Shown: in pieces, positions 26,257-54,958 of the stretch
How positions within the stretch are numbered: position 1 is the first letter of the stretch
Layout of the letters: each line of letters starts with the position of its first letter
IMG/VR virus record: IMGVR_UViG_3300030104_003872
Span: 11,291-75,290 of that record
Direction: 5' to 3' (one strand)
Source of the DNA: a virus
Length of the DNA: 64,000 nt
Made by a program: the position numbers and the translations under genes
The notes under the pieces: generated by a model
The model's input: the letters and a program-made list of their open reading frames with translations, nothing else
What the model was told of the DNA's origin: nothing
Databases searched by the model: none

Positions 26257-26595
26257 TCATTGCAGAGAACTTTCCTTCTCTTGCTTTTGCATCTCGTACA
26301 TCATCTTTCTCCCTTCTATACGAGCCTTCCACATAGAGATACCAAAACTCATTGCTTGTTGTCTCTTTTCCATATCCTCATCAAACGGGTCCATACCCAT
26401 TCTCGCGGGTAAGACCATAGTGGCGTCGCATAAGTCGCAACATCTCGAATCGAAATCTTTTGGGTCAGCAAGGAGTGGGTAGGGATTATTACCCATGTAT
26501 TCTCCGGTCTTGAATAATAACTCGTTGGTATGAGGGTGTCTTGGTCCCTTAATCTCTTTCTTACAGAGACAACACTTAAGATTACTCTTCCTCAT
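26257..26595 (-). CDS. Zn-finger protein
   Basis: CCLC...GNNPYP...RCCDLCD..V.PAR. Confidence 0.65.
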   Translation of the reverse strand: MRKSNLKCCLCKKEIKGPRHPHTNELLFKTGEYMGNNPYPLLADPKDFDSRCCDLCDATMVLPARMGMDPFDEDMEKRQQAMSFGISMWKARIEGRKMMYEMQKQEKESSLQ

Positions 26596-26779
26596 CGTTG
26601 ATTGCTCCTTCTAATAGTCGTCGAATGACACTAGGGTCAATAGCAGACTCTTTGATAAGAGCCATAAACTCTTCGGCCGTTTGACCTGTTGCTACCGTTT
26701 CGCCTGTCTCTTTGCTTACAACTCTGAATAAAGGAGCATCCGCACCCGCATTCTCTGTCTCTACATCAATTACGGTCAT
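26582..26779 (-). CDS. hypothetical protein
   Basis: AGGAGTG RBS; coupled to the next gene. Confidence 0.55.
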   Translation of the reverse strand: MTVIDVETENAGADAPLFRVVSKETGETVATGQTAEEFMALIKESAIDPSVIRRLLEGAINDEEE

Positions 26780-35116: not shown

Positions 35117-35294
35117 ATACAAGAAGTGCAACGAGACACAACACGAATGGACTCGACAAGACATGGATGATAGCGAGTTCGATAAATTATCATTGACCTA
35201 CCATTGTTTGCATTGCGGAGCAACGTGCGAGATGGAGGGTGATGTAAGGACAGATGATGGTAGGTTCATAGAGTGGGTGCTGACCGATGAGTAA
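35109..35294 (+). CDS. small Zn-ribbon protein
   Basis: C....HEW...CLHCG; coupled overlaps. Confidence 0.5.
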   Translation: MSEYKKCNETQHEWTRQDMDDSEFDKLSLTYHCLHCGATCEMEGDVRTDDGRFIEWVLTDE

Positions 35295-35778
35295 TTGGTA
35301 CTGTGGCGACCCTTGTTATGTTATACACGACGAAAGATGGGGAGAGTTTTGTAATAAACTCTTTGCACACCCTAGTTATGAGAAAAACAACTACCCAATT
35401 GGTATAGAGTGGGAAGTCGATGGGAAAAAATACGAATTAGAGATATGGGGTTCTCCCGGAGGCGACGGGGTCTGGCGTTTTAGTGCAGGAGAACTTGGAG
35501 TTGATGCGGGATTACTTTCTATCATTCCGGTAGAGTGCCTTGACCCTCAAGAGGCACCATTCGACAGACTAGGTATTATGTTCGAGGAAAAGCCAGTACT
35601 CGATGCCGACTATAATGAGGGTAAAGTATGGTTAAATGGAGAACTAGATAATGATTGGGTCATGTGCGATTGTGGAGAAATGCAAAGGACAGAGCAGATT
35701 TGGGATTGTGAGCATTGTTTTAGTGCAGAGTGCGACAACTGTTACCCATGTTGCGACGGAAATGGTGAAGAGGAATGA
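35287..35778 (+). CDS. hypothetical protein with a C-terminal Cys cluster
   Basis: YCGDPCYV, GGDG and GVDAG motifs. Confidence 0.6.
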   Translation: MSNWYCGDPCYVIHDERWGEFCNKLFAHPSYEKNNYPIGIEWEVDGKKYELEIWGSPGGDGVWRFSAGELGVDAGLLSIIPVECLDPQEAPFDRLGIMFEEKPVLDADYNEGKVWLNGELDNDWVMCDCGEMQRTEQIWDCEHCFSAECDNCYPCCDGNGEEE

Positions 35779-37162: not shown

Positions 37163-37430
37163 ATTATTGAGATGGACAGGTAAAGTTGAGGACTTAGGTT
37201 CTGAGAAAGATATATCAATGGAGCGTTATCAGCAGTTAGTCGGTGGTTACTTCGAGTCAATAGTCCTCAAGACAGGCGAAAGAGCGTATGTCAATGAGGA
37301 TGCTTCTTACTCTAACTTACCCCTCAATCCACTATGTTTTCTCCATCATATATACACGCAAGGTAGAGATATTCACCCAAGAGGAAATGTAATAGTTTTC
37401 TCTGATAAAGAATGGAGACAAATGACATGA
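37128..37430 (+). CDS. DUF3846-like protein
   Basis: YQQLVGGYFE...YVNED...PLNP...RGNV; start may be slightly downstream. Confidence 0.6.
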   Translation: MERNGRWIRVVKLLRWTGKVEDLGSEKDISMERYQQLVGGYFESIVLKTGERAYVNEDASYSNLPLNPLCFLHHIYTQGRDIHPRGNVIVFSDKEWRQMT

Positions 37431-37663
37431 GAATTAATGAATTATACGACAAAATATATTGGAACGACAAGAATAGCATAGTAATACTCTGGCACACAGA
37501 CGACGTGAAGTCGATAAGACCGGATTTAGATGATGACCAGTGTATGAAAGTTCTCAATAAGGTTTCTCGCAACCATGACGCTCAGATTGGAGTAAATTGG
37601 GATGTTTTAGAGTTTTGGGCTGACGAGTTATATGGTGTAATGAGGTCAGAGGAAGAAGAATGA
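37412..37663 (+). CDS. hypothetical phage protein
   Basis: W...DV...RPDL.DDQC..VL...HDA..G.NW. Confidence 0.55.
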   Translation: METNDMRINELYDKIYWNDKNSIVILWHTDDVKSIRPDLDDDQCMKVLNKVSRNHDAQIGVNWDVLEFWADELYGVMRSEEEE

Positions 37664-39185: not shown

Positions 39186-39683
39186 ATGAACATATTTATC
39201 CTAGATGAAGACCCAATAATGTCTGCAAAGTTTTACTGCGACAAGCACATACCTAAGATGGTTGTTGAGTTATACCAACAACTAGGTAGTGCAGTTATCC
39301 GACACGGTGCAACGCCCGACATGATGCCACTTACTAAAAAAGGTACGCCCCTACGCGGAGGTTACCACAACCACCCTTGTACCCGTTGGGTAGGAGATTC
39401 ACGGGCTAACTTTCTATGGGCTTCTTATCACGCCGCTATGCTCTGCGAAGAATATACAAAGCGATTCGACAAAACACATTTCTGCGAACATGGGATAGAA
39501 AAATTATACGAGTTACACAAACTTATTCCCGATGGCGAATTGACACCGTTTGCTCAGGCTATGCCCGATGAGTACCGTGATGAAGATGCGGTGGTAGCAT
39601 ATCGCAACTACTATATGTACGACAAGTCAAGATTTGCACAATGGAATCGTGGTCGTGACGCACCTTATTGGTGGGTAGTTTAA
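39186..39683 (+). CDS. pyrimidine-dimer DNA glycosylase / endonuclease V-like protein
   Basis: MNIFILD.DP...CDKH..KM..E..Q, HNHPCTRW, EY..R..K.H, FAQAMPDEY, AYRNYY. Confidence 0.8.
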   Translation: MNIFILDEDPIMSAKFYCDKHIPKMVVELYQQLGSAVIRHGATPDMMPLTKKGTPLRGGYHNHPCTRWVGDSRANFLWASYHAAMLCEEYTKRFDKTHFCEHGIEKLYELHKLIPDGELTPFAQAMPDEYRDEDAVVAYRNYYMYDKSRFAQWNRGRDAPYWWVV

Positions 39684-42325: not shown

Positions 42326-42895
42326 ATGGATGAATGGGCGGAATATGAACTTTATCAGATTGAGCTCAATGATTACATGAATAAATTGGAGGAACAATAT
42401 ATGGAACAAGAAAAAGAATACGACAGCATAGAATGGAATCACGAAGCATGGGCTGAAAGGGACGAAGGAGCCTACAGCATCGTGGCGGTGATGGCCGGAG
42501 CAATAATGGAAAAAGGACAAGAACATCACTTTGTAGAGATGGTTCGTAACTTAGGTGCAAAGCATGAGCCACTATTGATAGGACAATCAGTTACACTTCC
42601 TGACCTAGAAGATAGAGACCACCCACTTCCAGAGACAGGTGGAAGGCATGATTTGTTTTTCGCATTTCATAACCTAGATATTGCTAGAGTTGCAGTACCT
42701 AGACTTATGTATGGTATTAGGTGGTGGTCAGATGTTGTGGATAATGAATGGAATCATATGTCCCTAGAGAATAAAGCAAACTACCGCGAACACACTATAT
42801 ATCCCGAATATGTATTTGAGACTTGCGGGTTTGGTGAAAATGAAGTTGCTGAGTTTTGGAATAATCCTTCACCTGTAAGGAGTGAAGAAGAGTGA
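42326..42895 (+). CDS. hypothetical phage protein
   Basis: TGGRHDLFF...RL.YGIRWW.DV. Confidence 0.55.
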   Translation: MDEWAEYELYQIELNDYMNKLEEQYMEQEKEYDSIEWNHEAWAERDEGAYSIVAVMAGAIMEKGQEHHFVEMVRNLGAKHEPLLIGQSVTLPDLEDRDHPLPETGGRHDLFFAFHNLDIARVAVPRLMYGIRWWSDVVDNEWNHMSLENKANYREHTIYPEYVFETCGFGENEVAEFWNNPSPVRSEEE

Positions 42896-43384: not shown

Positions 43385-44050
43385 ATGGGAGTAATAATTT
43401 ATGCGGGTGATGATAAGGATTTCAAGAACGGAGACCATATAGTAATGTATGGTGAAATGACTTCTCCCCCTACTGCACCTAACACAACATATATTCTTCA
43501 TTGTGAATCATTCCCCCTATCTATGGCTAAAGAATGGGCTAATTTAGTAACATATAGGCTAGTTGTGATACCTAGAAAGGGTATTAGGGGCATTCGTGAA
43601 GGGGATAATATTCTAATCCACAAATCGGCTAAAACGGCTAAAAATAACTATAATTCACCAATCAATGCTATGATGAAGTGGTCAGACCGCAACAGGGCAT
43701 GGAAGGCTATGAAACCTGTCCCATTTGCTTTAGCAGAGGCATTTCATAAAGTAAATAGACCGAATGGTATAGAAGAGCAAAGGATAATCAGCAAAGCCCG
43801 CTATCAGATGGAAGAAGAATATGCAAAGGCGGCTCTTGTATTCGGAACAGAAGCGATTCACAGTCATGTCTCATGGCCTAAGAAGAAAGCAGACGAAAAT
43901 GATACAATCCCCTTTGGGTTCAGGTCTACTGATGTGTATGCTGATATGATAGTACAACACGCCCCCGAAGTACGAAATAAACTTAGAGCGATTGACCAAG
44001 CACCTTCTAGTATCAAGAAAACAAAGGAGTCATTGTTAGAATGGCTTTGA
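43385..44050 (+). CDS. putative clamp-loader accessory (degenerate RFC large subunit-like) with a C-terminal PIP-like motif
   Basis: Ends KTKESLLEWL*; lies near RFC small; AAGGAG RBS. Confidence 0.4.
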   Translation: MGVIIYAGDDKDFKNGDHIVMYGEMTSPPTAPNTTYILHCESFPLSMAKEWANLVTYRLVVIPRKGIRGIREGDNILIHKSAKTAKNNYNSPINAMMKWSDRNRAWKAMKPVPFALAEAFHKVNRPNGIEEQRIISKARYQMEEEYAKAALVFGTEAIHSHVSWPKKKADENDTIPFGFRSTDVYADMIVQHAPEVRNKLRAIDQAPSSIKKTKESLLEWL

Positions 44051-44211
44051 TTTGGGTTTTCCTTGCCTGTGTGGTATTTTACGCTCTCTTTCTAGTATTT
44101 TATGTATGTTTTATAAACCTCTTTCCAAAATATTCACCAGAAAAATTCTCCGGCCGAACTACCGATGATGATATAGATTTGTTGCTATCATCACTCTTCT
44201 TAGAACAGTAA
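44041..44211 (+). CDS. small membrane protein (not in ORF track)
   Basis: MALIWVFLACVVFYALFLVFYVCFINLF... Confidence 0.4.
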   Translation: MALIWVFLACVVFYALFLVFYVCFINLFPKYSPEKFSGRTTDDDIDLLLSSLFLEQ

Positions 44212-44248
44212 CCCTTTTAAGCAATGACAGGTCCGACAAAGTGGTAGT

Positions 44249-44773
44249 GTGGTTGGGCGAAGAAAGTCTTGGGGTTCGCGTGGGGATGAACATGAAGCCT
44301 TTGACCGAACACTAAGAAAAGGCCAATCATTATACTACATGGGAAGAAGAACGAAGGGAAATAGGATGACGGCACATAACGCAAGAATAAGAAGGGAATT
44401 AATCTATATCCTATGGGATGTCGATGAACCTTTGACCAAACAAGAGATTACAACACACTTAGAAAAAAGAATGAAACTAATTAACGCTCCTAGTGCTATA
44501 TCTTTAGGTACTATACTATCCCGAAACCCTCAAGTTAATTCTGAAAAGACCGTTATTATTACAACGGGTGATGGTAGAAGAAGGCGTGTTCCGCAGTACG
44601 AAATAAATAGCGAATTGATATATGAGATAGAAGATATAATCTTTACCTTGCCTTACAATGCACTAACTAAGAAAGAGCAAGAATCGGCAGTATTGTGTAA
44701 GGGATGCGGTAGGAGAAGATACTTCGATAATGATATGGATTTATGCCTTCAATGTACTAGGCTTCCAAAATGA
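44249..44773 (+). CDS. winged-helix plus Zn-ribbon protein (putative transcription factor)
   Basis: EPLTKQEI...SLGTILSRN; CKGC...CLQC. Confidence 0.55.
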   Translation: MVGRRKSWGSRGDEHEAFDRTLRKGQSLYYMGRRTKGNRMTAHNARIRRELIYILWDVDEPLTKQEITTHLEKRMKLINAPSAISLGTILSRNPQVNSEKTVIITTGDGRRRRVPQYEINSELIYEIEDIIFTLPYNALTKKEQESAVLCKGCGRRRYFDNDMDLCLQCTRLPK

Positions 44774-44947
44774 TTATAACCCCTGTCCTTTAGGGTTAGT
44801 TATGTCTGTACGTCCCGTAACTATGTCAGTACCTCAAAACGAAGAACTCAACTGTTATTTCTGTAATCTGAAATTAAATAATGAAGAAATAATATTTTAC
44901 AGAGTCTGTATGAATAATAAGTGGGGTACAGGTAGTGTATGTGAGAT

Positions 44948-45889
44948 GTGTTGGCGTGTAGCAGAAGAAGTAAGGGGATGGTACTCGTGAAAGTAATTTG
45001 GGCTGAAAAGTATCGACCTAAGATTTTGGATGAAGTATTATCACAGGATTCGGTAGTATCTGAAATGCGAGCGATTGTTAGCGGGGATGCACCCATGCAA
45101 CATTTCTTATTCCACAGTCCTGAGCCGGGTAGTGGTAAAACAACTATGGCGAGGGTTATGGCTGATGAATTAGGTTATCAACTACATGAGTTTAATGCTT
45201 CCACTAAGAAACAAAGAGGAATAGATTTTGTCGAAGATGATATTGCCCCTATGTCTAGGATTGGTCAGTTTGAAACTATATTCCTTCTTGACGAGGCAGA
45301 TAGAATTACACCGACTGCACAAGACGCATTGAAAGGTGTTATTGAGAACGCACAGGGATATTTCATTCTAACCTGCAACGACTTGAACAAAGTATCTCCT
45401 TGGCTCAAATCTAGGTGTCAAGTTAGGACCTTCAAACCTATACCCGATGACTTAGTAATGGAGCGTCTAAAACATATATGTGTTCAAGAAGCGGTAGAGA
45501 TGACCGAAGATGATTTGTTAATAATTATTAAGAAACATGGTGGTGATATGAGAAACGCTATTGGTGCATTACAGGCGGCCTCTTATCTATCCCCCATAGA
45601 TAGACAACAATTTATTGCATCCATAAGCACTCCGACCATAGATGCAGGTTCGGTTTTGACTATTTGCTTCAAAATGGGTAATGTTCCCGAAGCGGTCAAG
45701 ATATTGAGCCAAGCACCTGCACGTGAGGCTATTCATCAAGTATTCCTTAAAGCAATAGAGGCAAACATAACAGACCATGAAAAGAAGATGTTGGTTGTTG
45801 AAGCATCCATTCAAGCACGCAGAGACCTAATAAATGGTGTTCCCGAAGTGTATGTTATTTGGGAGTTTTGCCGATTTATAAGCCAATAA
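44948..45889 (+). CDS. rfcS: replication factor C small subunit (clamp loader)
   Basis: WAEKYRP, PGSGKTT, EFNAS, LLDEAD, AQDAL, SRC and GDMR; true start probably near 44978-44987. Confidence 0.95.
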   Translation: MLACSRRSKGMVLVKVIWAEKYRPKILDEVLSQDSVVSEMRAIVSGDAPMQHFLFHSPEPGSGKTTMARVMADELGYQLHEFNASTKKQRGIDFVEDDIAPMSRIGQFETIFLLDEADRITPTAQDALKGVIENAQGYFILTCNDLNKVSPWLKSRCQVRTFKPIPDDLVMERLKHICVQEAVEMTEDDLLIIIKKHGGDMRNAIGALQAASYLSPIDRQQFIASISTPTIDAGSVLTICFKMGNVPEAVKILSQAPAREAIHQVFLKAIEANITDHEKKMLVVEASIQARRDLINGVPEVYVIWEFCRFISQ

Positions 45890-45948
45890 AAGCAAATCCT
45901 TATAAGGGGTGGCTTGCGTGGGATAAGTAGGAGTAAAATGGTGATTAT

Positions 45949-47196
45949 ATGACCGATATTAATACAGAACAAATAGTAAAAGACCTTGCAAGCAACTTAG
46001 GTGTTGCTGAGGATAGGTTAAGACAGAAGATGAGTGAGGTGCTTGCAGAAAACGGAGCATCTTGGGCTAATGCAGGTAAAGACGAAACGACTTGCACTAT
46101 CCTTTCAGCCCGCGTTGCGGGTCGCCAACTAAAAATGATTGGTGAAAGACTGAAAAAGAGTGGACTAGAACAATTCGAGGGAATGTTCATTCGTGTACCA
46201 CCTTACAAGGATTGGGCTCAGATTGCTTACAGAAAGGCAGAACGCGAGTTGTCAGCAAGAGGTAACGTAAGTGACCCTGCAACACAGGCACAACTTAGAA
46301 ATGGTGCTTTAGTATATTACGAGGCTAGTGGAACAGGATATACCCGATATGCAAATGCCGGTCTAATGAACAAAACAGGTTTGAATGATGAGATTAGCGA
46401 AGCAACAGTTGATTCTCTTCCAAAGAATCATCACGAGTTACCTAACGGAGATGCTTTCTATCTGATTTGGAATAACACAACACCGACTTTCCCAAGCGGT
46501 GATGCTAACTTCAAATACGGAGCACCACGCCCCGCATCTGAAAAGGAGCGAACCTGCGTATTTTTGGGGAGAAAGGTTGGTTCAACTAGTGAGCCAGCAT
46601 TAATTAATGTTAGAGCAAACGGTAAGACTGCTGATACTCAGCACGCAACATTCCTACCCGGAACAATCGGACTTAGACCCGGACGAGATGGGAAAGTTGC
46701 TTATGCTAAAGAACTAAGCGACCTTGTACCTAACGATGAAGTGGCGGGAATATTCTCATCACCACCATTCGCTATCGGTGAAGCGGGTCCAGAAGGTATT
46801 GTACCGGATATGCTAGGCGGTCTTTACCCTAACGGAGGTATTCTGCCTTCATTCGCAACACTAGAACAATACCACACCGACCACAAAGATGATTCAGATT
46901 GGTGGGACCAGTGGGTAGGTATCGTTGGTGAAGTGGTACATATAGACCCGCGTGAGCGTGGTGGATATACAGTAACCCTCGGGGATATTGACATTACAAG
47001 TGTTGCACCCGGTCAGGATTTGGTTATTCCAAAGGCACAAGAGCACCTAGTTAATTTCGGTATCGGTTCGCAAATACTAATTGTCGGACAGACATACAAA
47101 TCTAGGGATGATGAAATGAGATTTACAACACATGGTTGGTGGTGCGTCGATTCAGTTGAGGCAGTATCGGTTGATGCAGAATCTTGGGAGGACTAA
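45949..47196 (+). CDS. ssDNA-binding protein (RPA/OB-fold)
   Basis: C-terminal OB-like VGIVGEVVHID...TVTLGD; acidic tail; next to the recombinase. Confidence 0.6.
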   Translation: MTDINTEQIVKDLASNLGVAEDRLRQKMSEVLAENGASWANAGKDETTCTILSARVAGRQLKMIGERLKKSGLEQFEGMFIRVPPYKDWAQIAYRKAERELSARGNVSDPATQAQLRNGALVYYEASGTGYTRYANAGLMNKTGLNDEISEATVDSLPKNHHELPNGDAFYLIWNNTTPTFPSGDANFKYGAPRPASEKERTCVFLGRKVGSTSEPALINVRANGKTADTQHATFLPGTIGLRPGRDGKVAYAKELSDLVPNDEVAGIFSSPPFAIGEAGPEGIVPDMLGGLYPNGGILPSFATLEQYHTDHKDDSDWWDQWVGIVGEVVHIDPRERGGYTVTLGDIDITSVAPGQDLVIPKAQEHLVNFGIGSQILIVGQTYKSRDDEMRFTTHGWWCVDSVEAVSVDAESWED

Positions 47197-47198
47197 GT

Positions 47199-48143
47199 AT
47201 GGCATGGGCTCAGAATACCAAGCCGAAGGCGTCGACCAAACCTGCATACACGGTTGACCATTATAGGGATTTATTCAATAAGAATGCCGACCGGAAATTG
47301 GGGGCAACCCCTGTCCGTATGGCTCTTGTTGGTAAAGAGAATACTGCTAAGACAGGACTCGCATTATCCCTATCAAGAACACCGGAAGAGGTTAAAGAAG
47401 GTAAAAAAGTTATTATCTTTGACTTCGACAATTCAGCAGAAGCAACCGTAAGGTTTGTTTATCCTAACGACCCTAATGTAATAATATTGAAACTGTTTGA
47501 CGAGATGGATGATTCTATCTTTGAAGAGGATGGTGTAACAGTATTGTGGCATGGTCTAGTAAAGAAAGTAAAGGCATTCGTGACCATAGCAGGGGATTTA
47601 GTCAACGAGGGTAATGTTGCTTCGATTATATTCGATGGCGGTAGTACCTTTTCCAAGTGGTGCGAGTTTAGTATGCGTGAATCACTATTAGAAAGAGGTG
47701 TAACAGAACACGAAGGCGATTCATTCAATCAGAAAGAGTGGCAGGAGAGAAACAGACTTTTCCGTGATACACTATATCGAGTACAGGCTTTACCTGTTGA
47801 TAGAGTATTCTTTACCTTCCATCTGAAAGACCACAAACAATATCTAGGTGATGGTGGAGGCAAAAAGGTTCTCATGAAAGTTGGTGAAAAGCCCGACTGG
47901 ATTGACGGTACTCAAAGAAATATGAGTCAACAGATATTCCTAGCGAGATACACCAAGAAAGGAGACGACGCGGCAGGGGTCAAATCTGATAAAACTCTTA
48001 AAGAAGGCGAGTTTGTTGTCCGTGCAACTGTTGAGGAAATGAAAGGGACAGGAAGTGAGTTTGTGGGAACAACTCACGATGTTCTCTTAATCAAGAATAA
48101 CAAAGTAACGTGGAACGGTCTACCTGACATGGGGTTGATATGA
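47199..48143 (+). CDS. RecA/RadA-superfamily ATPase (Sak4/AAA_24-like)
   Basis: ALVGKENTAKT, IFDFD, IIFDG, FTFH; GGAGG RBS before ATG 47199. Confidence 0.75.
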   Translation: MAWAQNTKPKASTKPAYTVDHYRDLFNKNADRKLGATPVRMALVGKENTAKTGLALSLSRTPEEVKEGKKVIIFDFDNSAEATVRFVYPNDPNVIILKLFDEMDDSIFEEDGVTVLWHGLVKKVKAFVTIAGDLVNEGNVASIIFDGGSTFSKWCEFSMRESLLERGVTEHEGDSFNQKEWQERNRLFRDTLYRVQALPVDRVFFTFHLKDHKQYLGDGGGKKVLMKVGEKPDWIDGTQRNMSQQIFLARYTKKGDDAAGVKSDKTLKEGEFVVRATVEEMKGTGSEFVGTTHDVLLIKNNKVTWNGLPDMGLI

Positions 48144-48342
48144 TGGATGATATGAAACAAACTCTTCAATACTTAAGGTCAGACATAGACACTTTGATGC
48201 TAGAAATGCGTACATTAAAAGAGGAAAATAGACAATTAAAATCAAGCCTAGAAATTATGGCTCAAAGATTGGCTAATGAAAGGAACGAACCTCTGATAAA
48301 ATGGACATAATCCTTATAAGTGGGTGCTAGGTGGAATAGAAT

Positions 48343-49170
48343 ATGTTAGTCAAGGCAAGCAACATGAAAAAGTTACTAGAAGTAACTGCGAGAAAACAAT
48401 TTGTAAATGGAAAACCTCAACAACAGGTAATAGGTTGTGTATTAAGAGGAACTCAGATGGATGAAGTAAGCACAACGAGTTTAGTTCGTGATGGTAAAAC
48501 ATCTATCGCACAGTTCTCAACTGTATGCGACTGGAAAGATGATGAACAGGCTATTGTTATCCCCGACATTGATAGAACACTAGGAGTTCTTTCAGCACAC
48601 AACGGAGATATAACTATGACGCAAGATGGTGGCTCATTAAGAATAAAGAGCAAAGGCAAGCAAACAACCATTGTTGCAGAGCCCGGTAGTTTAGCATTTC
48701 CTCACACACAAGAAACTATTGCTGAGTGGGAAAGTAAATCACTAACCCTTTCTGAGCAAGTCAATGAAGATGCAGGTTCTTACAAAATGCGAGATGGTTC
48801 TGACAGAAAAGCATTCTTTATGGCTGAGACTTCTGCGTCTATACTTCACGAGGCTTTGAAGGCTGATAACATGAACTCGCAGAAACTTAACCAATACACA
48901 TTCAGATATGACGGTCAAAATGTTCTATATGTTCAGACTGGTACTGACCTAAAAGGACAGACAGAAACAATACTGAACGACGATTGTCAGCAACAGGTTG
49001 AATCTTTCGAGGCAACTTATGAAGGTGGGCTTGAGCAAATACTATCACACTATGACGGTATGGTCAAACTATACTTCTTAGACTTCCGACCAGAAGGACA
49101 GGGTATCAGACTAATTGTTAGTTTTGATAACGGAGATTGGGTTTTCCAAGCGTGCGTTCTAAAGAGGTGA
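48343..49170 (+). CDS. DNA sliding clamp (PCNA-like)
   Basis: 275 aa with a two-domain alpha/beta pattern; same module as RFC and PolB; leaderless after CTTATAAG. Confidence 0.65.
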   Translation: MLVKASNMKKLLEVTARKQFVNGKPQQQVIGCVLRGTQMDEVSTTSLVRDGKTSIAQFSTVCDWKDDEQAIVIPDIDRTLGVLSAHNGDITMTQDGGSLRIKSKGKQTTIVAEPGSLAFPHTQETIAEWESKSLTLSEQVNEDAGSYKMRDGSDRKAFFMAETSASILHEALKADNMNSQKLNQYTFRYDGQNVLYVQTGTDLKGQTETILNDDCQQQVESFEATYEGGLEQILSHYDGMVKLYFLDFRPEGQGIRLIVSFDNGDWVFQACVLKR

Positions 49171-49175
49171 TTTGA

Positions 49176-49373
49176 ATGATAAGAAAAATTCTCCGGACTA
49201 CCTTTAATACTTCTTACGGAACGACGCATATTAACGTGTCTGATATTTCCGCTATCACAGAAACTAGAGATAGATTTGAAATCCATATGACTTCCGGTAC
49301 TATATTTACTACCGTTGATAAAGAAGGACCATATGTGTTTGTTACTAAATGGATGGAGGGGCGAATTGAATGA
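49176..49373 (+). CDS. small hypothetical protein (FlbD-like beta fold)
   Basis: HINVSDISAI...EIHMTSG; GAGGTGA RBS. Confidence 0.5.
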   Translation: MIRKILRTTFNTSYGTTHINVSDISAITETRDRFEIHMTSGTIFTTVDKEGPYVFVTKWMEGRIE

Positions 49374-50548
49374 GTATCGAAAGACATATCATTAGAACCC
49401 CATTAAGGGAGCGTTATGGTGCTCCACCTTTCAGCATCCTAGATGCACGACAAGGTTATTGGCAAGACAGAAAGCGTTGGTGGACTCGTAAAGGCATCCG
49501 GTCAGAATTAGGAAGGGGTGAGGCACTTATCGCTATGTCTAAATCGAACATGAAGTATATGTTTGGTAAAAAAGAGTACGATGTTGACCAGTTACAGAAA
49601 GAGGGAATCCTTCTAACTGATGAAGAAGTTGAAGTTGGTGGAGATTCTAAAGGTAACGCTAAGACATTCGCTATTGGAGATAAAGCAACGTGGAATGAAA
49701 CTAAGAGCGATACTAGAGCAATTCCAGGAGGAGGGACAGGTAAAAATAGTGTTTGGCTTCATAAGAAAGAAGATGGGAGCATGGGTGCTTCCCTAAAGGA
49801 AGAAGATGCTTTCAAGAATAGAGCAACAGGTACTTCTATATTCGACCCAGTCCTAACAGAATTAATGTACGATTGGTTTTGTCCGAAAGACGGTAGTATT
49901 CTTGACCCTTTCTGTGGTGGTTCTGTTAGAGGGATTGTCGCGGCTCATGGTAATCATCAGTATGCGGGTATGGAATTACGTTCCGACCAAGTACAAGCAA
50001 ATAGGATTCAAGGATTAGAGATACTAGGCGATACTGATTATCCTATGCCTAATTGGGTTGTTGGAGATGCACTAGACATACAAGATAAGATAGGTGGTCA
50101 ATGGGACATGGTATTTTCATGCCCCCCTTATGGTGACCTTGAAGTCTATTCAGAAGATGATAGGGATTTATCCACTATGGAACACCACGAGTTTTTAGAT
50201 TCATATAGAAATATTATTCAGCGTTCTGTTGATATGCTCAAGGATAATAGATTTGCAGTATTTGTTGTTGGGGATTTTAGAAACGAAAAAGGATTCTATC
50301 GTAACTTCGTTAGCGACACTATTGACGCATTCCAATCAGCAGGTGCTACCTTATACAATGAATGTATCTTAATTACAGTTGCAGGTAGCCTTCCTATAAG
50401 AGTACATAAGCAATTCGCTAACAATAGAAAGTTAGGTAAAACTCATCAGAATGTTTTAATCTTCTTCAAGGGTGACCCCAAGACTATACAGGATGAGTTC
50501 CATTATCTTGATGTTGAAGATAAGACAGAGGACGTGGAATGGCTTTAG
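49370..50548 (+). CDS. amino (N6-A/N4-C) DNA methyltransferase-fold protein with a C-terminal PIP-like motif
   Basis: PPFSILD, SIFDPVL.E, ILDPFCGGSVRG (motif I), FSCPPY (motif IV variant), LEVYS, HQNVLIF; ends VEWL*. Confidence 0.85.
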   Translation: MSIERHIIRTPLRERYGAPPFSILDARQGYWQDRKRWWTRKGIRSELGRGEALIAMSKSNMKYMFGKKEYDVDQLQKEGILLTDEEVEVGGDSKGNAKTFAIGDKATWNETKSDTRAIPGGGTGKNSVWLHKKEDGSMGASLKEEDAFKNRATGTSIFDPVLTELMYDWFCPKDGSILDPFCGGSVRGIVAAHGNHQYAGMELRSDQVQANRIQGLEILGDTDYPMPNWVVGDALDIQDKIGGQWDMVFSCPPYGDLEVYSEDDRDLSTMEHHEFLDSYRNIIQRSVDMLKDNRFAVFVVGDFRNEKGFYRNFVSDTIDAFQSAGATLYNECILITVAGSLPIRVHKQFANNRKLGKTHQNVLIFFKGDPKTIQDEFHYLDVEDKTEDVEWL

Positions 50549-51501
50549 ACTTTAGCGAGTTTGTACCATTAACATTTGATAATTACAGAGCCTTTAGGAA
50601 TGGATTGTTCCGTGCCTACCGTCATCCACGATATTATCAATCACCTATGAGGCTTCTTCACCAACCCCATGTATTCAAGTTAGGGTATGTTGATGATGAC
50701 TTGGTCGTTCTAAAAGACAGGCAAATAATGGGAACACAGGTTCTCTATTCTATATTGCCCCCGAATAATTGGGAGGTAATACATAAACTAACAGAAGGAG
50801 GTGTCCCTTGTTTTCTAAGTGACGAAGATGTGTTTAATGCTCCTGATAAGCATGGGGTTGTTCCTGTAAAGGACAACATAGAGTATGTGTATCATCTATC
50901 AGCATTTTCGGATAGATATGGGGTGAATAAGAACCAACTTAGAAGGCCATGTAACAAGGCTGAGTCGCTTTGTGAGTCGGGTGAAATAACTATTGAAGCA
51001 CATTGGGGTAATGTTCCCTATGAAACGCTTAATTCATGCAATGTTTTGACCGCTAAGTGGTTAGCCCAAAGGGATAAGAAAGCATGGAAACCTAACTTCT
51101 TTATTGACTCTTTCAATAAGTATTCTAAACTAGAACACGCTCTTCTTTTGACTGTTATGCAGGGGGATAGATGTTTAGGCTACCACCTATCACATAGGGT
51201 ATGTAATGGTTTAATTTACGATGTGGCCTGTAAGGATTATGAGAACACACCTATTAAGAATATGACTCCTGTCCTTCTTCACTATGCTTCTAAAGCGTGG
51301 GCGGAGAAGTTCCCTTCACAGTTAGAATACACAAGGGTTAATAGAGGAGCGGCAGTTAGGGGTGCGTCTAGCCGGATAGCCAAAGACAAACTAAGACCGC
51401 TATTAAAGAATCAGATATACAAGACAGTTCCCCCTATCAAGATGACTAAAGAATTAAAATCATCATACTTTGAAGTAAAACAGAATGTCGAATGGTTATA
51501 A
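50539..51501 (+). CDS. DUF2156 / MprF-C-like tandem-GNAT transferase with a C-terminal PIP-like motif
   Basis: EYVY...G...LRR..NK and VNRG...G...R.AK.KL.P resemble the DUF2156 dYiY..G..kRn..N and iNre.DlG..gLr.aK..y.P patterns; ends VEWL*. Confidence 0.55.
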   Translation: MALDFSEFVPLTFDNYRAFRNGLFRAYRHPRYYQSPMRLLHQPHVFKLGYVDDDLVVLKDRQIMGTQVLYSILPPNNWEVIHKLTEGGVPCFLSDEDVFNAPDKHGVVPVKDNIEYVYHLSAFSDRYGVNKNQLRRPCNKAESLCESGEITIEAHWGNVPYETLNSCNVLTAKWLAQRDKKAWKPNFFIDSFNKYSKLEHALLLTVMQGDRCLGYHLSHRVCNGLIYDVACKDYENTPIKNMTPVLLHYASKAWAEKFPSQLEYTRVNRGAAVRGASSRIAKDKLRPLLKNQIYKTVPPIKMTKELKSSYFEVKQNVEWL

Positions 51502-51569
51502 TACGAAGCCTTATAAGTAACCGCCTCTTCGGATATAGTAGAAAGCCCATAGGCAGAAGGCCATAACAA

Positions 51570-51854
51570 ATGAAGTACAGTTTAGTAATAGAAGATGAAG
51601 ATAGCACAAGAACAATTCCGATTGACCCTAATGAACGATTAGTAGTTGATAATGTATGGTACTCACTTGAACTAGGTCAAGCAAAAACAGATAGACCATA
51701 TAGAAGTGAAGAATGGCTAACTGCCGTATATCATGGTGAAGGTAAGACTCTTAAAGAAATAGGAGATATGTGTGGCGTAAGTCCGATGACCATAAATCAA
51801 TGGTTAGTAAAGCACGGAATCACTAGCAGACCTCGTGGGAGGAGAAGAGAGTGA
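51570..51854 (+). CDS. HTH DNA-binding protein
   Basis: EEWL...Y..EGKTLKEIGDMCGVSPMTINQWL.KHGI. Confidence 0.8.
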   Translation: MKYSLVIEDEDSTRTIPIDPNERLVVDNVWYSLELGQAKTDRPYRSEEWLTAVYHGEGKTLKEIGDMCGVSPMTINQWLVKHGITSRPRGRRRE

Positions 51855-52354
51855 ATGTTACTTTCTATCTTTGCGGACCGATACTTAGTGAAAATGAAAG
51901 ATGGCGTTCATTAGAGTGGCGTGAAATCGCTTTTGATATTCTCGATTCTAATGGCTTCAATGTTTTCAATCCTATGGTAAGTGAGGACTATGGGAATGTT
52001 CATTATGATGAGCAATTTAAGGAATTGATTGTTCCACGAGATAAACTAATGATAGACCGTTCAGATGTTATAATAGTGAATTGGATTCCTAAAGAAATGA
52101 GTATAGGGACTTGCATGGAAGTCATGTATGCTCATCAGCAGGGGAAGAAGGTAATATGGTTCGCAGAAGACCAATCACTTGCTCTTGAACTCGAAGAAAA
52201 CCCTTGGGTCATAGCACACAACGATTGGGAGTTTGTTAGACCGTTTAGTTCCGATAACATAAGGGATATAGCAGAATGGTTTGGTTGCTTCAAAAAGACT
52301 AAGAGAATGGTCAAGTTTTTGAACAGTAACGAAAGGCCAAATGACTTTTGCTAA
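51851..52354 (+). CDS. nucleoside 2-deoxyribosyltransferase / dNMP N-glycosidase (Rcl/MilB-like)
   Basis: YLCGPI, D..MIDRSDVII, SIGTCMEVMYA...GKKV. Confidence 0.85.
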   Translation: MNVTFYLCGPILSENERWRSLEWREIAFDILDSNGFNVFNPMVSEDYGNVHYDEQFKELIVPRDKLMIDRSDVIIVNWIPKEMSIGTCMEVMYAHQQGKKVIWFAEDQSLALELEENPWVIAHNDWEFVRPFSSDNIRDIAEWFGCFKKTKRMVKFLNSNERPNDFC

Positions 52355-52385
52355 GTGTTATAAGTAAATACGCATCCGCAAGTAT

Positions 52386-54587
52386 ATGATAGTGGATGGC
52401 TTAGGTGGAAGAAGGGTTGCAGTCAGGTATCGTGACCCAGTTACACTTGACCGGAAGCAAGATATTATTAATGATATTTACCCATACGCATTTATTAGTG
52501 ATGTTGATGCTGACCTTATTCCGGCAGTAAAGAAAGAAAGTGGATTCACTGGTCTGTATGGTGAAAATATTACCAAGATTACACTTGCTGACCCTTACGA
52601 AACTTCACAACTAAAGAATACATTTTCTCAGACATGGGAATGTAATATCCCCTTCACTAACAGAGTACTTATTGACAATGGTAAGCATTATGATTTCTAT
52701 AAGCATCGTGTGTGGTACGTTGACCTTGAATGGAATGAAAGGGAAGAAGTAACAGTTGCGACTGTCTATGATAATTACATGGGGAAGTATCTAACGTGGT
52801 TTGTATCACCGCCCGGTCAAACTCACCCACCATTGGTAAATAAATTAGGAGATAAAACATTCAATCCCCCACTAAAAGCATTCAAGACCGAAAAGGAATT
52901 ACTCGATGACTTCTTCCATGTGATGATGAAGAAGGACCCCGATGTATTGACAGGTTGGTTCTTCATGGGTGCTGATATGCGAGTCCTGTTTGATGCTTGT
53001 AAGAGACATGGTTGGAATGCAGGTAAGCGTATGAGCCCGCATGGTTCTGTTCGTTATCAGTTTGACGACTATTCACAATGTATCAAGGGCAGAATTACTA
53101 TTGACCTTATGACTGTATTTTGCAGACTATGGCGTGTAAAGAACGGACAACTACCAGGTCAAAGCCTAAAAGATGTATCGCAGTTTGTTCTTGATAATGA
53201 AGAAAAGATGGACCTAGCAGACGGGCATGATACATACTATACCGACTTAGGGACATATATTGACTATAACATACAAGACGTTGCTTTGCTACCTAAATTG
53301 GATAAGATGCTTAACTGTATCGACCACTTCCTTAACCTTCAACATATTGTTCAATGTGATTTCATTACCACTCCTTGGGTCACAAGATTAGCAACCATTC
53401 TTCTTCTAAGGGATGAGAAGTTTGATAGAAGGATTCCAAGTAAGCCACAGTTTGCTTATGAGGATTATCAAGGGGCAGATATACAGGAAGCGGTAGCAGG
53501 TTTGTATGAAAGAGTTGCTATCATGGATATAAGAGCAATGTATCATAGTAACATTCTGAAATACAATATCTCATGGGAAACTATACTTGATGAAAAGAAT
53601 GGAGTGTTTGATACTGACGCACCAACAGGGGCATTAGGCCGTGCTATGGACCTACTTACAAATCTAAGGAATGAGTACAAGGCTAATATGAAGGCTTCGA
53701 CAACCAAAGAAGAAAAGACTAAATGGGATTCGGCTCAATACGCCACGAAGTCGCTAGTGGCTTCCCTGTATGGAGTCTGTGGTGATAGCCGATTCGGTAT
53801 GTATCACCCTGCGGTAGCGGCGGCTATTACTCGCACATCAAGAAATACGCTTGGTGAATTACGAGACAAGTGTATAGAATGGGGTTGTGATGTTATCTAT
53901 GGTCATACTGATTCTGTTTTCGTTACCGTTGAATCCCCCGAAGCAGGTATGGAGATGGTTGATTGGATTAATAAAGAAATGGCTCCAATAGAAACTGAGT
54001 TTGAAAAGTATTGTGAGCGTATGTTGCTTAAGGCTAAGAATAGGTACGCAGGTAAGGTCACATGGACTGATGGTGAATATCACGAACCCGACTATTATGT
54101 CAAGGGGATAGAATCTAAACAGGCTAGAATGCCTCAGGTAATGAAGGATGCTATGAATACTACAATAAACTCTATGCTTGATGGTAAATCTGAACAATGG
54201 GTCAATGATAAAGTGTGCAGTATTATTCACGATATGGTAGATGGTAATATCCCACTTGACGAGTTGAAGCAGAAAGGAAAACTAAAGAAGGACCTAAAAG
54301 ATTATAGAACAATAGGAGGTTCGGCCGCAGGAGCATTGTGGGCTAATACAAACTTGGGGAAGGAATATAGAAAGGGAAGTTATTTCTGGGTCTTACTTGA
54401 TTCAAGCGGAAGGTTTATAGCGTTTGACTCAGTGGAAGAACTACCAAGTAACATTGCGATAGGCTATGAGGTGATGATTCAACGATACATAATAGAAAAG
54501 GTCAAACCTTTTTATGAAATAGCATCGTGGGAAATGAGCCAATTACATGACGCAAAGAAAGGAAGAAAAGCAGTAGAGTGGTTATAA
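52386..54587 (+). CDS. polB: family B DNA polymerase
   Basis: Exonuclease VDLE and YNIQD; polymerase DIRAMYHS, KSLVASLYG, YGHTDS, KNRY and VKGIE; ends VEWL*. Confidence 0.95.
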   Translation: MIVDGLGGRRVAVRYRDPVTLDRKQDIINDIYPYAFISDVDADLIPAVKKESGFTGLYGENITKITLADPYETSQLKNTFSQTWECNIPFTNRVLIDNGKHYDFYKHRVWYVDLEWNEREEVTVATVYDNYMGKYLTWFVSPPGQTHPPLVNKLGDKTFNPPLKAFKTEKELLDDFFHVMMKKDPDVLTGWFFMGADMRVLFDACKRHGWNAGKRMSPHGSVRYQFDDYSQCIKGRITIDLMTVFCRLWRVKNGQLPGQSLKDVSQFVLDNEEKMDLADGHDTYYTDLGTYIDYNIQDVALLPKLDKMLNCIDHFLNLQHIVQCDFITTPWVTRLATILLLRDEKFDRRIPSKPQFAYEDYQGADIQEAVAGLYERVAIMDIRAMYHSNILKYNISWETILDEKNGVFDTDAPTGALGRAMDLLTNLRNEYKANMKASTTKEEKTKWDSAQYATKSLVASLYGVCGDSRFGMYHPAVAAAITRTSRNTLGELRDKCIEWGCDVIYGHTDSVFVTVESPEAGMEMVDWINKEMAPIETEFEKYCERMLLKAKNRYAGKVTWTDGEYHEPDYYVKGIESKQARMPQVMKDAMNTTINSMLDGKSEQWVNDKVCSIIHDMVDGNIPLDELKQKGKLKKDLKDYRTIGGSAAGALWANTNLGKEYRKGSYFWVLLDSSGRFIAFDSVEELPSNIAIGYEVMIQRYIIEKVKPFYEIASWEMSQLHDAKKGRKAVEWL

Positions 54588-54958
54588 TGAAAGGGCAAAG
54601 AACACAAAGAAAACAGACCGTAAAGCAAATAATGAAACAAGACCTAATTGCTATGCAAGAAAAAGTCGATTTGATAGAATCTAAACACAATCAATTGGTG
54701 AGCGTATTTATTGATTTCAGCAGACACGCTGAGAACATGACAACACTTCTTCATCTGCATCTATTAGATGCTGGTCTAGCAAGTAAAGAACAATGTTCGG
54801 GTTGTGGAATGGCCGTAATATACCCTCATAAGTTTGAGGAAATACAGGCTATGCCGGTCTGTCCTAACAGAATAGATAAGGATGGTAAAGAGGTTAAAGA
54901 ATGTTTGGATGGGTTTAATCATATTGATAATCCTTTTGCTTCCTCAGAAGAAGAATAG
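54578..54958 (+). CDS. coiled-coil plus Zn-ribbon protein
   Basis: CSGC...CP...C; overlaps the polB stop. Confidence 0.55.
   Translation: MVIMKGQRTQRKQTVKQIMKQDLIAMQEKVDLIESKHNQLVSVFIDFSRHAENMTTLLHLHLLDAGLASKEQCSGCGMAVIYPHKFEEIQAMPVCPNRIDKDGKEVKECLDGFNHIDNPFASSEEE

What the first reader, a model, noticed from the sequence alone, without database searches (positions are those of the whole stretch)
43385..54587. Shared C-terminal [VL]EWL* clamp-binding motif ties a methyltransferase and a GNAT-like enzyme to the replisome
Seen: four non-homologous proteins end almost identically: 43385 (KESLLEWL*), MTase 49370 (TEDVEWL*), GNAT-like 50539 (KQNVEWL*) and PolB (RKAVEWL*). They use different codons (GAA/GAG, CTT/TTA), which points to protein-level selection. 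Known: archaeal PolB and RFC-large bind PCNA through C-terminal PIP boxes ending in hydrophobic/aromatic pairs; DNMT1 is PCNA-tethered and phage Mu Mom (GNAT fold) modification is linked to the replication clamp. Inference: a virus-specific PIP variant recruits both modifying enzymes to the viral clamp, so DNA is modified as it is replicated and only viral DNA is marked.
Basis: partly seen in the sequence, partly recalled or inferred. Interest (0 to 1): 0.9.

Follow-up and report, generated by a model that had tools for sequence, protein, structure and literature searches.

The report
Clamp-docking tails on viral DNA-modifying enzymes
In this uncultured marine archaeal virus (a magrovirus) and about a hundred relatives, the DNA polymerase, a clamp-loader-like protein and nearly every DNA-modifying enzyme end in the same tiny peptide (x-Glu-Trp-Leu/Ile/Val), which most likely hooks them onto the virus's own sliding clamp so that new viral DNA is modified as it is copied; binding has not been measured.

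Summary
In the complete 75.3-kb virus record, exactly four ORFs end in EWL*: a 221-aa unknown protein, a ParB-N6/N4 methyltransferase, a DUF2156/LPG_synthase_C-like tandem-GNAT protein, and PolB. Chance does not explain this (0 of 20,000 simulations). Gene overlap does not explain it either.

ORF 48343 has a PCNA-like sliding-clamp fold. The virus is a magrovirus.

Across about 100 related contigs, W at -2 and L/I/V at -1 are invariant in all four families, down to about 30% identity. The same tail also ends other N6/N4 methyltransferases, C5 methyltransferases, DpdA, P-loop-GNAT fusions and a weak Mom-like protein. All of these sit in variable cassettes around the clamp and PolB genes. Bacterial-phage homologues of the methyltransferase, and distant DUF2156-like proteins, lack the tail.

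Best reading (about 0.7): a truncated, virus-private PIP-like clamp-docking tail that couples DNA modification to replication. A complex prediction gave only weak support. The receptor and the claim that only viral DNA is marked remain inferred.

I found no publication describing this. Unpublished notes from this scan report analogous tails in other viruses. It is a new variant of a known kind (PIP and T4-type clamp clients).

The parts
43385..44050 (+). 221-aa protein of unknown family with the tail ...KKTKESLLEWL*. It is probably a degenerate AAA+-like, clamp-loader accessory (large-subunit or gp62-like) protein.
   Evidence: No Pfam, PHROG or PDB sequence hit. AF2 model has mean pLDDT 81 with a coil tail. 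The best VIA matches are CTF18, T4 gp62, RFC1, Rad24 and RAD17, but only at Z 6-7. All 31 distinct homologues end x[EDQSG]W[LIV]*.
44039..44047 (+). E-W-L codons of the 43385 tail (GAA TGG CTT). The ATG of ORF 44041 lies inside them.
44948..45889 (+). RFC-small-subunit-like clamp-loader ATPase. It carries no tail.
   Evidence: PF00004, Rad17 and RFC lid domains; phrog_168 'clamp loader', E 1e-44. 65 homologues show no conserved C-terminus.
45949..47196 (+). Conserved 415-aa protein of unknown function with a different conserved tail, GW[DE]x* (here ...AESWED*).
48343..49170 (+). Virus-encoded sliding clamp with a two-domain PCNA/gp45-type fold. This is the proposed receptor of the tails.
   Evidence: AF2 pLDDT 92, pTM 0.90. 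Foldseek probability 1.00 to PCNA, 9-1-1 and beta clamps. No Pfam PCNA hit at sequence level. 96 homologues.
49370..50548 (+). ParB-like N-domain plus N6/N4 DNA methyltransferase (CPPY motif at residue 251). Tail ...TEDVEWL*, with E-W-L at 50537-50545.
   Evidence: PF01555 39.8 bits; phrog_498/12517; phrog_15396 ParB-like. All 16 distinct homologues end EWL. Bacterial-phage homologues end in unrelated acidic tails. It is the only MTase in the genome.
50539..51501 (+). DUF2156/LPG_synthase_C-like (tandem GNAT) transferase. Tail ...KQNVEWL*, with E-W-L at 51490-51498. Its start codon lies inside the MTase tail codons.
   Evidence: PF09924 24.3 bits (below the 27.5 cut-off) here, found in 14 of 21 relatives, best E 1.8e-8; Atlas. 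All 20 database homologues down to 36% identity end xxW[LIV]* behind a variable linker. Only 3 of 144 more distant representatives end in W plus a hydrophobic residue: the two closest in EWL, and one in FWF.
51851..52354 (+). Nucleoside 2-deoxyribosyltransferase-like protein in the same gene string. No tail; listed as context only.
   Evidence: PF05014 E 1.8e-11; no conserved C-terminus
52386..54587 (+). Family B DNA polymerase. Tail ...GRKAVEWL*, with E-W-L at 54576-54584.
   Evidence: PF00136 E 2.7e-33, phrog_262. All 48 distinct C-terminus-bearing homologues (unsplit PolB or the C-terminal half of split PolB) end xW[LIVW]*. The PolB C-terminal part of split-PolB magroviruses ends KQKTLDEWW*.

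Best explanation
x-E-W-[L/I/V]-COOH is a short C-terminal docking peptide: a truncated, lineage-private relative of the archaeal C-terminal PIP box. The peptide inserts its Trp/aliphatic pair into the hydrophobic pocket of the virus-encoded PCNA-like clamp (48343).

The polymerase and a clamp-loader-like protein use it for replication. The virus has placed the same peptide on whatever DNA-modifying enzymes it carries: here a ParB-N6/N4 methyltransferase and a DUF2156-like transferase; in relatives, C5 and other N6/N4 methyltransferases, DpdA, P-loop-GNAT and Mom-like proteins. These enzymes would then ride the clamps left on newly made viral DNA and modify it co-replicationally, before host nucleases see it.

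Shown: the motif, its invariance, its restriction to PolB, the loader-like protein and the modifiers, and the clamp fold.

Inferred: that the clamp is the receptor, and that the purpose is replication-coupled (and possibly virus-restricted) modification.
For: 1. Four EWL* tails in one replication module, beyond chance, with synonymous codon differences.

2. Invariance. W at -2 is present in every tail-bearing sequence tabulated (about 140). Position -1 is L>I>V(M), and -3 is E in about 70%. The residues upstream are family-specific. All homologues keep the tail: p43385 31/31, ParB-MTase 16/16, GNAT-like 11/11 in loci plus 20/20 database homologues, PolB 48/48.

3. The same tail on unrelated DNA-modifying enzymes in syntenic cassettes next to the clamp and PolB genes: other N6/N4 MTases 14 of 17 (2 more end WM), C5 MTases 6/7, DpdA 6/6 (PF23859, E 1e-74), P-loop-GNAT 4/4, and one weak Mom hit. 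Control families have no conserved tail (RFC-S, NDT, p56004, p44249). W[LIV] ends 147 of 1500 distinct ORFs, against an internal dipeptide frequency of 0.0044.

4. The tail is a lineage-specific add-on. Bacterial-phage homologues of the MTase end in unrelated acidic tails. Of 144 distant DUF2156-like representatives, only the two closest end in EWL; one other ends in FWF.

5. Link to the clamp:
- 48343 is a PCNA-fold clamp next to an RFC-like loader.
- B-family polymerases dock on clamps through short C-terminal motifs (PMC3201878), and archaeal PIP boxes sit at the extreme C-terminus (PMC3504372).
- Split-PolB magroviruses have a canonical Q-x-x-L-x-x-W-W* at the homologous PolB end.
- p43385 most resembles clamp-loader large subunits and gp62 (Z 6-7).
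- Repair nucleases occasionally carry the tail: PD-(D/E)XK in 4 cases and ERCC4 in 1.

6. Complex prediction of the clamp with the last 40 residues of the GNAT-like protein gave the verdict 'weak support'. ipSAE was 0.42, against 0.00 for the best of 3 controls. The mark was reached by 58 of 80 solved complexes and 2 of 110 mismatched pairs. At 0.60 or under, it was reached by only 7 of those 80 and by both mismatches. Runs agree in at least 41% of contacts, and partner pLDDT is at least 42.
Against: - No binding measurement exists. The complex prediction is only weak, and by the tool's own calibration such a pass is more often wrong than right without a good prior.
- The motif lacks the defining Gln and the position-4 hydrophobe of canonical PIP boxes in three of the four window proteins.
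- The clamp has no detectable sequence similarity to PCNA, so its pocket cannot be assumed.
- The clamp-loader assignment of p43385 rests on Z 6-7 matches only.
- In two of the four window cases the tail codons also encode the next gene's start, so part of the constraint there is dual.
- A few modifiers lack the tail: one C5-like protein (L042), four of five PALP proteins, and one N6/N4 MTase in a split-PolB virus.
Confidence: 0.7

Rival explanations
1. The tail is a docking peptide, but for a different hub than the viral clamp. Candidates are the host (Poseidoniales) PCNA, a viral SSB or helicase, the conserved 415-aa protein (45949), or the AAA_24/Sak4-like ATPase. The result would still be assembly of replication and modification enzymes in one place.
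For: - The receptor was never observed, and the clamp-tail prediction is only weak.
- Two neighbouring proteins carry their own, different conserved Trp tails: GW[DE]x* on p45949 and L[RK]W* on the AAA_24 protein in relatives. This hints at several peptide-hub contacts within this replisome.
- The haloarchaeal virus HRTV-27, which shows no clamp gene in the 20-kb stretch examined, has a canonical PIP on PolB, presumably for host PCNA.
Against: - Every contig with the tail set encodes the clamp and an RFC-like loader in the same gene string.
- In systems with a clamp, polymerase C-termini are described as clamp-binding (PMC3201878).
- The controls in the complex prediction scored 0.00, including an unrelated protein in place of the clamp.
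- The tail differs from canonical archaeal PIP boxes, as expected if it is tuned to the highly diverged viral clamp rather than to host PCNA.
Confidence: 0.17
2. The tail is not a replisome docking site but another kind of C-terminal signal, such as a degron for timed turnover, a localisation signal or a packaging signal.
For: Short C-terminal hydrophobic tags can serve as degrons or targeting signals in general (general knowledge, not tested here). The motif is very short.
Against: - In the window and loci, the tail is confined to the replication module. No structural-module ORF carries it.
- It sits on the essential polymerase in every genome.
- At the same PolB position, split-PolB magroviruses have a canonical PIP box.
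Confidence: 0.06
3. The shared ending is a by-product of nucleotide-level constraints, either overlap with the next gene's start codon inside GAATGG or translational coupling, or it is chance.
For: In the window, two tails contain the next ORF's ATG (43385 to 44041, and MTase to 50539). All GNAT-like homologues start with MAL for this reason.
Against: - The GNAT-like tail is 69 nt from the next gene.
- By a crude ORF call, the majority of the PolB and GNAT-like tails in relatives that have a downstream gene do not overlap it (PolB 28 of 43, GNAT-like 7 of 11).
- The tail codons are synonymously diverse: GAA/GAG, and TTA/TTG/CTT/CTA/ATA/GTA.
- Simulation gives 0 of 20,000 for four identical end-tripeptides.
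Confidence: 0.02

Closest known systems
Archaeal and eukaryotic C-terminal PIP-box clients of PCNA (PolB, RFC large subunit, Fen1, RNase HII, XPF; PMC3504372)
   Same: A short peptide at the extreme C-terminus on a flexible tail, ending in an aromatic/aliphatic pair. It is present on the B-family polymerase and on a clamp-loader-like protein. The genome encodes a PCNA-fold clamp and an RFC-like loader. Split-PolB magroviruses still have the canonical Q-x-x-L-x-x-W-W*.
   Different: The shared core is only x-E-W-[LIV]-COOH. There is no conserved Gln, no conserved position-4 hydrophobe and only one aromatic residue. The clamp is too diverged for any sequence match to PCNA. Most clients are DNA-modifying enzymes rather than replication or repair factors.
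Phage T4/RB69 gp45 clamp clients (C-terminal tails of gp43, gp33, gp55; PMC2988020, PMC3201878)
   Same: A virus with its own clamp, loader and PolB, which reuses the polymerase's C-terminal clamp-binding peptide on functionally unrelated proteins. This amounts to a virus-private peptide code.
   Different: The motif sequence is unrelated. The extra T4 clients are transcription factors (and ligase by another mode), not DNA-modification enzymes. The present virus has an archaeal host and an archaeal-type replisome.
PCNA-coupled DNA methyltransferases of eukaryotes (DNMT1; ciliate 6mA maintenance complexes, PMC11761967)
   Same: A methyltransferase is brought to nascent DNA by the sliding clamp, so methylation follows the fork.
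   Different: These are eukaryotic cellular enzymes with PIP motifs that are not C-terminal tails, and their role is epigenetic maintenance. Here the enzymes are viral and are presumed to act against restriction. They span at least three MTase classes plus a transglycosylase (DpdA) and acyl/aminoacyl-transferase-fold enzymes.
Unpublished notes of this scan on other DNA (e1-5945920, e1-5362773, e1-5741110, e1-5857821)
   Same: In other uncultured viruses, MTases or sugar transferases share the polymerase's C-terminal tail.
   Different: Those cases have other motif dialects (L-F-x-F, F-F/F-W, KFF) and other virus groups. They are unchecked AI notes, not evidence.

Membership tests
PIP-box clamp-binding motif (Q-x-x-[LIM]-x-x-[FYW]-[FYWL]) | Located at an extreme terminus on a flexible segment | tested here: met
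   All tails are the last residues before the stop. The p43385 tail is coil with low pLDDT. The linker before the GNAT-like tail varies in length and sequence.
PIP-box clamp-binding motif (Q-x-x-[LIM]-x-x-[FYW]-[FYWL]) | Conserved Gln at position 1 and an aliphatic residue at position 4 | tested here: not met
   Position-specific counts over the tail-bearing sequences show no conserved Q or position-4 hydrophobe in PolB, MTases, GNAT-like or DpdA. Only p43385 has Q/E at -7 and L/V at -5/-4.
PIP-box clamp-binding motif (Q-x-x-[LIM]-x-x-[FYW]-[FYWL]) | Aromatic pair, or aromatic plus hydrophobic residue, at positions 7-8 | tested here: met
   W is invariant at -2, and L/I/V (rarely M or W) is at -1.
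PIP-box clamp-binding motif (Q-x-x-[LIM]-x-x-[FYW]-[FYWL]) | Binds the hydrophobic pocket of the clamp under the interdomain connector | tested here: inconclusive
   Complex prediction gave weak support: ipSAE 0.42 against a best control of 0.00. The mark was reached by 58/80 solved and 2/110 mismatched pairs, but at 0.60 or under by only 7 of the 80 and both mismatches. No contacts were reported.
T4-type viral clamp-client tails | The polymerase's C-terminal peptide is reused on unrelated proteins of a virus that encodes its own clamp and loader | tested here: met
T4-type viral clamp-client tails | T4/RB69-like motif sequence (L-D-F-L-F/Y type) | tested here: not met
   The tails are x-E-W-[LIV].
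Sliding clamp (PCNA/gp45/beta fold), for ORF 48343 | Two tandem beta-alpha-beta-beta-beta domains per subunit that match solved clamps | tested here: met
   AF2 pLDDT 92. Foldseek probability 1.00, E about 1e-9, to archaeal PCNAs, 9-1-1 and beta clamps, TM 0.6-0.7.
Sliding clamp (PCNA/gp45/beta fold), for ORF 48343 | Sequence membership in Pfam PCNA_N/PCNA_C | tested here: not met
   No Pfam, PHROG or PDB sequence hit.
N6_N4 DNA methyltransferase (PF01555), for ORF 49370 | Pfam score above the gathering cut-off, and a (D/N/S)PPY-type catalytic motif | tested here: met
   39.8 bits against a 26.7 cut-off. The motif is CPPY at residue 251, an unusual first residue.
DUF2156 / LPG_synthase_C (PF09924), for ORF 50539 | Pfam score above the gathering cut-off | tested here: inconclusive
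   24.3 bits against a 27.5 cut-off for the window protein. 14 of 21 family members match at E<=0.01, best 1.8e-8. Atlas neighbours carry PF09924. No structure was predicted.
Clamp-loader large/accessory subunit (RFC1, gp62 type), for ORF 43385 | AAA+-like domain plus helical lid/collar that matches loader subunits | tested here: inconclusive
   The top VIA matches are CTF18, gp62 (Z 6.6, rmsd 2.6 over 73 residues), RFC1, Rad24 and RAD17, but Z is below 8. Foldseek found nothing at E<=0.001. There is no Walker A motif.

The most novel reading that the evidence does not exclude
Magroviruses use a private three-residue clamp code (x-E-W-[LIV]-COOH) as a plug-in socket. Any DNA-modifying enzyme acquired by the virus (MTases of three classes, DpdA, Mom-like, P-loop-GNAT, PALP, DUF2156-like) gains the tail and is thereby recruited to viral replication forks only. 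Hypermodification is then co-replicative and restricted to viral DNA.

By the same logic, the tail marks the DUF2156-like transferase as a DNA-acting enzyme that makes a so-far undescribed base modification, possibly aminoacyl- or acyl-derived, together with the adjacent MTase.
Probability: 0.3. Interest if true: 0.85.

Novelty: new variant of a known kind. Interest (0 to 1): 0.72.

Why it matters
If the tail binds the viral clamp, it explains how an archaeal virus gets its DNA fully modified in step with replication. It would also extend clamp-coupled DNA modification, known from eukaryotic DNMT1, to viruses of archaea and to enzymes never linked to clamps, such as DpdA and GNAT-fold or DUF2156-like transferases.

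In practice, the tail works as a sequence barcode. In these uncultivated viruses, any protein ending in E-W-[LIV] is a candidate DNA-acting enzyme. This singles out proteins of unknown chemistry (DUF2156-like, P-loop-GNAT, PALP) as candidates for new DNA modifications.

The hypothesis can be tested directly with one recombinant protein and a few synthetic peptides.

Tried and rejected
Relatives came from the search for related loci instead.
- **Sequence searches against PDB** found nothing for the clamp, p43385 or the GNAT-like protein, either as single sequences or as profiles.
- **p43385 identity:** Foldseek found no match at E<=0.001, and the Atlas gave no usable hit. Its identity therefore rests on VIA Z 6-7 only.
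- **Split-PolB clamp candidate:** a profile-profile comparison of the clamp family with the 252-aa ORF upstream of the split PolB (L009-L021) gave probability 0.4. That ORF is not shown to be a clamp, and the idea that 'the tail dialect follows the clamp type' could not be tested.
- **Context of distant DUF2156-like proteins:** scanning viral contigs with their alignment found nothing. The metagenome scan gave only short contigs without a polymerase.
- **Chance and gene overlap** were tested and rejected.
- **Generality to cultured haloarchaeal viruses** was rejected for HRTV-27. Its PolB ends in a canonical PIP (Q-x-x-L-x-x-Y-V*), but its two MTases do not share it.
- **Mom and the clamp:** the Mu paper found concerns MuC and late transcription, not tethering of the Mom enzyme.
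- **Literature searches** for clamp- or PIP-tethered viral MTases, or for DpdA linked to clamps, found nothing relevant. This is not proof of absence, because subscription journals are not covered.

Full report
**What the window is.** The window is bases 11291-75290 of a 75,290-bp virus record that CheckV rates as complete. The + strand from about 31 kb to 57.7 kb is a replication module; large structural genes lie on the other strand.

The module's genes, by Pfam and PHROGs:
- RFC-small-like clamp-loader ATPase (44948)
- AAA_24/Sak4-like ATPase (47184)
- ParB-N6/N4 methyltransferase (49370)
- protein with a weak LPG_synthase_C match (50539)
- nucleoside deoxyribosyltransferase-like protein (51851)
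- PolB (52386)
- PD-(D/E)XK nuclease (54993)
- ERCC4 nuclease (57227)
- SF2 helicase, an ArdC-like protein and a pyrimidine-dimer glycosylase-like protein

The closest cultured PolBs are from haloarchaeal tailed viruses, at about 23% identity. The gene set (clamp, RFC, PolB that is split in some relatives) matches the magroviruses of marine group II archaea (PMC5434244, PMC10768690).

**The observation.** Exactly four ORFs end in EWL*, at the coordinates given and with different codons. The rest of the genome adds none. Four identical end-tripeptides among 76 ORFs never arose in 20,000 simulations.

**The clamp.** ORF 48343 has no sequence-level family. An AlphaFold2 model built on 34 homologues has pLDDT 92, and it matches archaeal PCNAs, 9-1-1 and beta clamps with Foldseek probability 1.00. 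It is a two-domain clamp subunit. The trimeric state is inferred from the two-domain architecture.

**Conservation of the tails.**
- Eight close relatives (PolB 78-88% identical) keep all four tails.
- All 20 database homologues of the GNAT-like protein, down to 36% identity, end in xxW[LIV]* behind a linker that varies in length and sequence.
- Nearly all complete homologues of the 221-aa protein end ...K-K-x-K-[EQ]-x-x-x-[EQ]-W-L*; one of them ends ERL.
- A scan with the clamp alignment fetched 80 loci with clamps 36-82% identical. Across all loci, every homologue of the four families that reaches its C-terminus keeps W at -2 and L/I/V at -1, with E at -3 in about 70%. Upstream positions are family-specific.
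- RFC-small, the deoxyribosyltransferase-like protein and two other conserved families show no conserved ending.

**Extension beyond the finding.** Forty-two further ORFs in these loci carry the tail. By Pfam they are:
- N6/N4 methyltransferases of several architectures
- C5 cytosine methyltransferases
- DpdA, the 7-deazaguanine DNA transglycosylase (E about 1e-74)
- P-loop-GNAT fusions
- one weak Mom-family hit
- one PLP-dependent enzyme

Counted on distinct sequences, those with the tail are:

| Family | With tail |
|---|---|
| Other N6/N4 MTases | 14 of 17 (2 more end WM) |
| C5 MTases | 6/7 |
| DpdA | 6/6 |
| P-loop-GNAT | 4/4 |
| ParB-MTase | 16/16 |
| GNAT-like | 11/11 |
| PolB (sequences with the true C-terminus) | 48/48 |
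| p43385 | 31/31 |

Gene order is conserved: p43385, RFC-S, [DpdA], p45949, AAA_24, clamp, [modification cassette], PolB, [modification cassette], nuclease. The cassettes vary from virus to virus, but their members carry the tail. A few repair nucleases also carry it.

**The tail is an add-on.** Bacterial-phage homologues of the ParB-MTase (31-57% identity) end in unrelated acidic sequences. A whole-library profile search with the GNAT-like family found 148 proteins. Of the 144 representatives outside the query set, only the two closest end in EWL, and one other ends in FWF.

**Gene overlap.** In the window, two tails contain the next ORF's ATG. This explains why all GNAT-like proteins start with MAL. 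However, by a crude ORF call, the majority of the PolB and GNAT-like tails in relatives that have a downstream gene do not overlap it (PolB 28 of 43, GNAT-like 7 of 11), and codon use is synonymously diverse. Selection is therefore on the peptide.

**What the tail binds (inference).**
- B-family polymerases of clamp-using systems dock through short C-terminal motifs (PMC3201878).
- Archaeal PIP boxes usually sit at the extreme C-terminus (PMC3504372).
- In split-PolB magroviruses, the C-terminal PolB part ends in a canonical Q-x-x-L-x-x-W-W*. A nuclease, a P-loop ATPase and the p45949 homologue in those viruses also end in aromatic tails.
- The 221-aa protein folds into an AAA+-like domain without a Walker A motif, followed by a helical domain. 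Its best structural matches are large subunits of clamp loaders and T4 gp62, but only at Z 6-7.
- One complex prediction, using the clamp and the last 40 residues of the GNAT-like protein, returned 'weak support'. ipSAE was 0.42, against 0.00 for the best of three controls. The mark was reached by 58 of 80 solved and 2 of 110 mismatched pairs. At 0.60 or under, it was reached by only 7 of the 80 and by both mismatches. Runs agree in at least 41% of contacts, and partner pLDDT is at least 42.

Together these make the viral clamp the most likely receptor (about 0.7). Another hub, such as host PCNA, is the main rival.

**Comparison with the known.** The system works like PIP-box and T4-type clamp clients and like DNMT1-PCNA coupling. 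It fails two defining sequence features of the canonical PIP box, the Gln and the position-4 hydrophobe. It is therefore best described as a truncated, lineage-private variant.

The haloarchaeal virus HRTV-27 has a canonical PIP on PolB, but its MTases lack it. I found no paper describing clamp-tethered modification enzymes in viruses of bacteria or archaea. This scan's own unchecked notes report analogous tails in other uncultured viruses.

**Verdict.** It is a new variant of a known kind.

Noticed in passing
window 26582-26779(-), 33512-34744, 35287-35778, 37412-37663, 42326-42895, 54578-54958: Six ORFs end in EEE*, typically encoded GAAGAAGAATGA, and relatives show the same ending on several small ORFs. 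This could be a purine-rich ribosome-binding/ATGA start-stop overlap for the next gene, or a real acidic tail.
   Followed up: partly
window 45949-47196 and 47184-48143; homologues in L022-L100: The 415-aa protein family has its own conserved C-terminal motif, G/S-W-[DE]-x*, in 71 homologues. The AAA_24/Sak4-like ATPase ends L-[RK]-W* or similar in many relatives, but not in the window. These may be further peptide-hub contacts in this replisome.
   Followed up: no
L009-L021 (split-PolB magroviruses): The PolB C-terminal part ends KQKTLDEWW*, a canonical PIP. A 281-aa P-loop ATPase ends KQMNLGDF*. The p45949 homologue ends DLDWF*, the PD-(D/E)XK nuclease ends NTWL/DTWV*, and the ATP-dependent ligase ends L-[IM]-F-G*. 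The PolB N-terminal part and the ORFs after it share another ending, AKEMK[VI]*, which is unexplained.
   Followed up: partly
P0146-P0287; L110:1896-6160, L112:3252-11389: Distant DUF2156-like homologues often end in other short hydrophobic tails that resemble clamp-binding motifs: Q-L-x-L-x-h, L-D-L-F and G-F-G-F types. These patterns were chosen post hoc and are enriched over internal 12-mers. In two metagenomic contigs these homologues sit beside N6/N4 MTases, a SAM MTase, a PLP enzyme, a 5'-3' exonuclease, a DnaB-like helicase and UDG-PolA-exo. An MTase + DUF2156-like (+PLP enzyme) cassette may therefore be widespread in viruses.
   Followed up: partly
window 49370-50548: The MTase has CPPY instead of the usual D/N/S-PPY. 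Its two PF01555 matches are in permuted order: profile 176-217 lies upstream of profile 2-114.
   Followed up: no
window 50539-50548 and all GNAT-like homologues: Every GNAT-like homologue starts with M-A-L, because its ATG lies in the upstream MTase's E-W codons (GAATGGCTT). This is a 10-nt dual-coding overlap conserved down to 36% identity.
   Followed up: yes
window 33512-34744, 39186-39683, 51851-52354: The replication arm also encodes an ArdC-like anti-restriction/metallopeptidase protein, a pyrimidine-dimer-glycosylase-like protein, and a nucleoside deoxyribosyltransferase-like protein directly upstream of PolB. None carries the tail.
   Followed up: no
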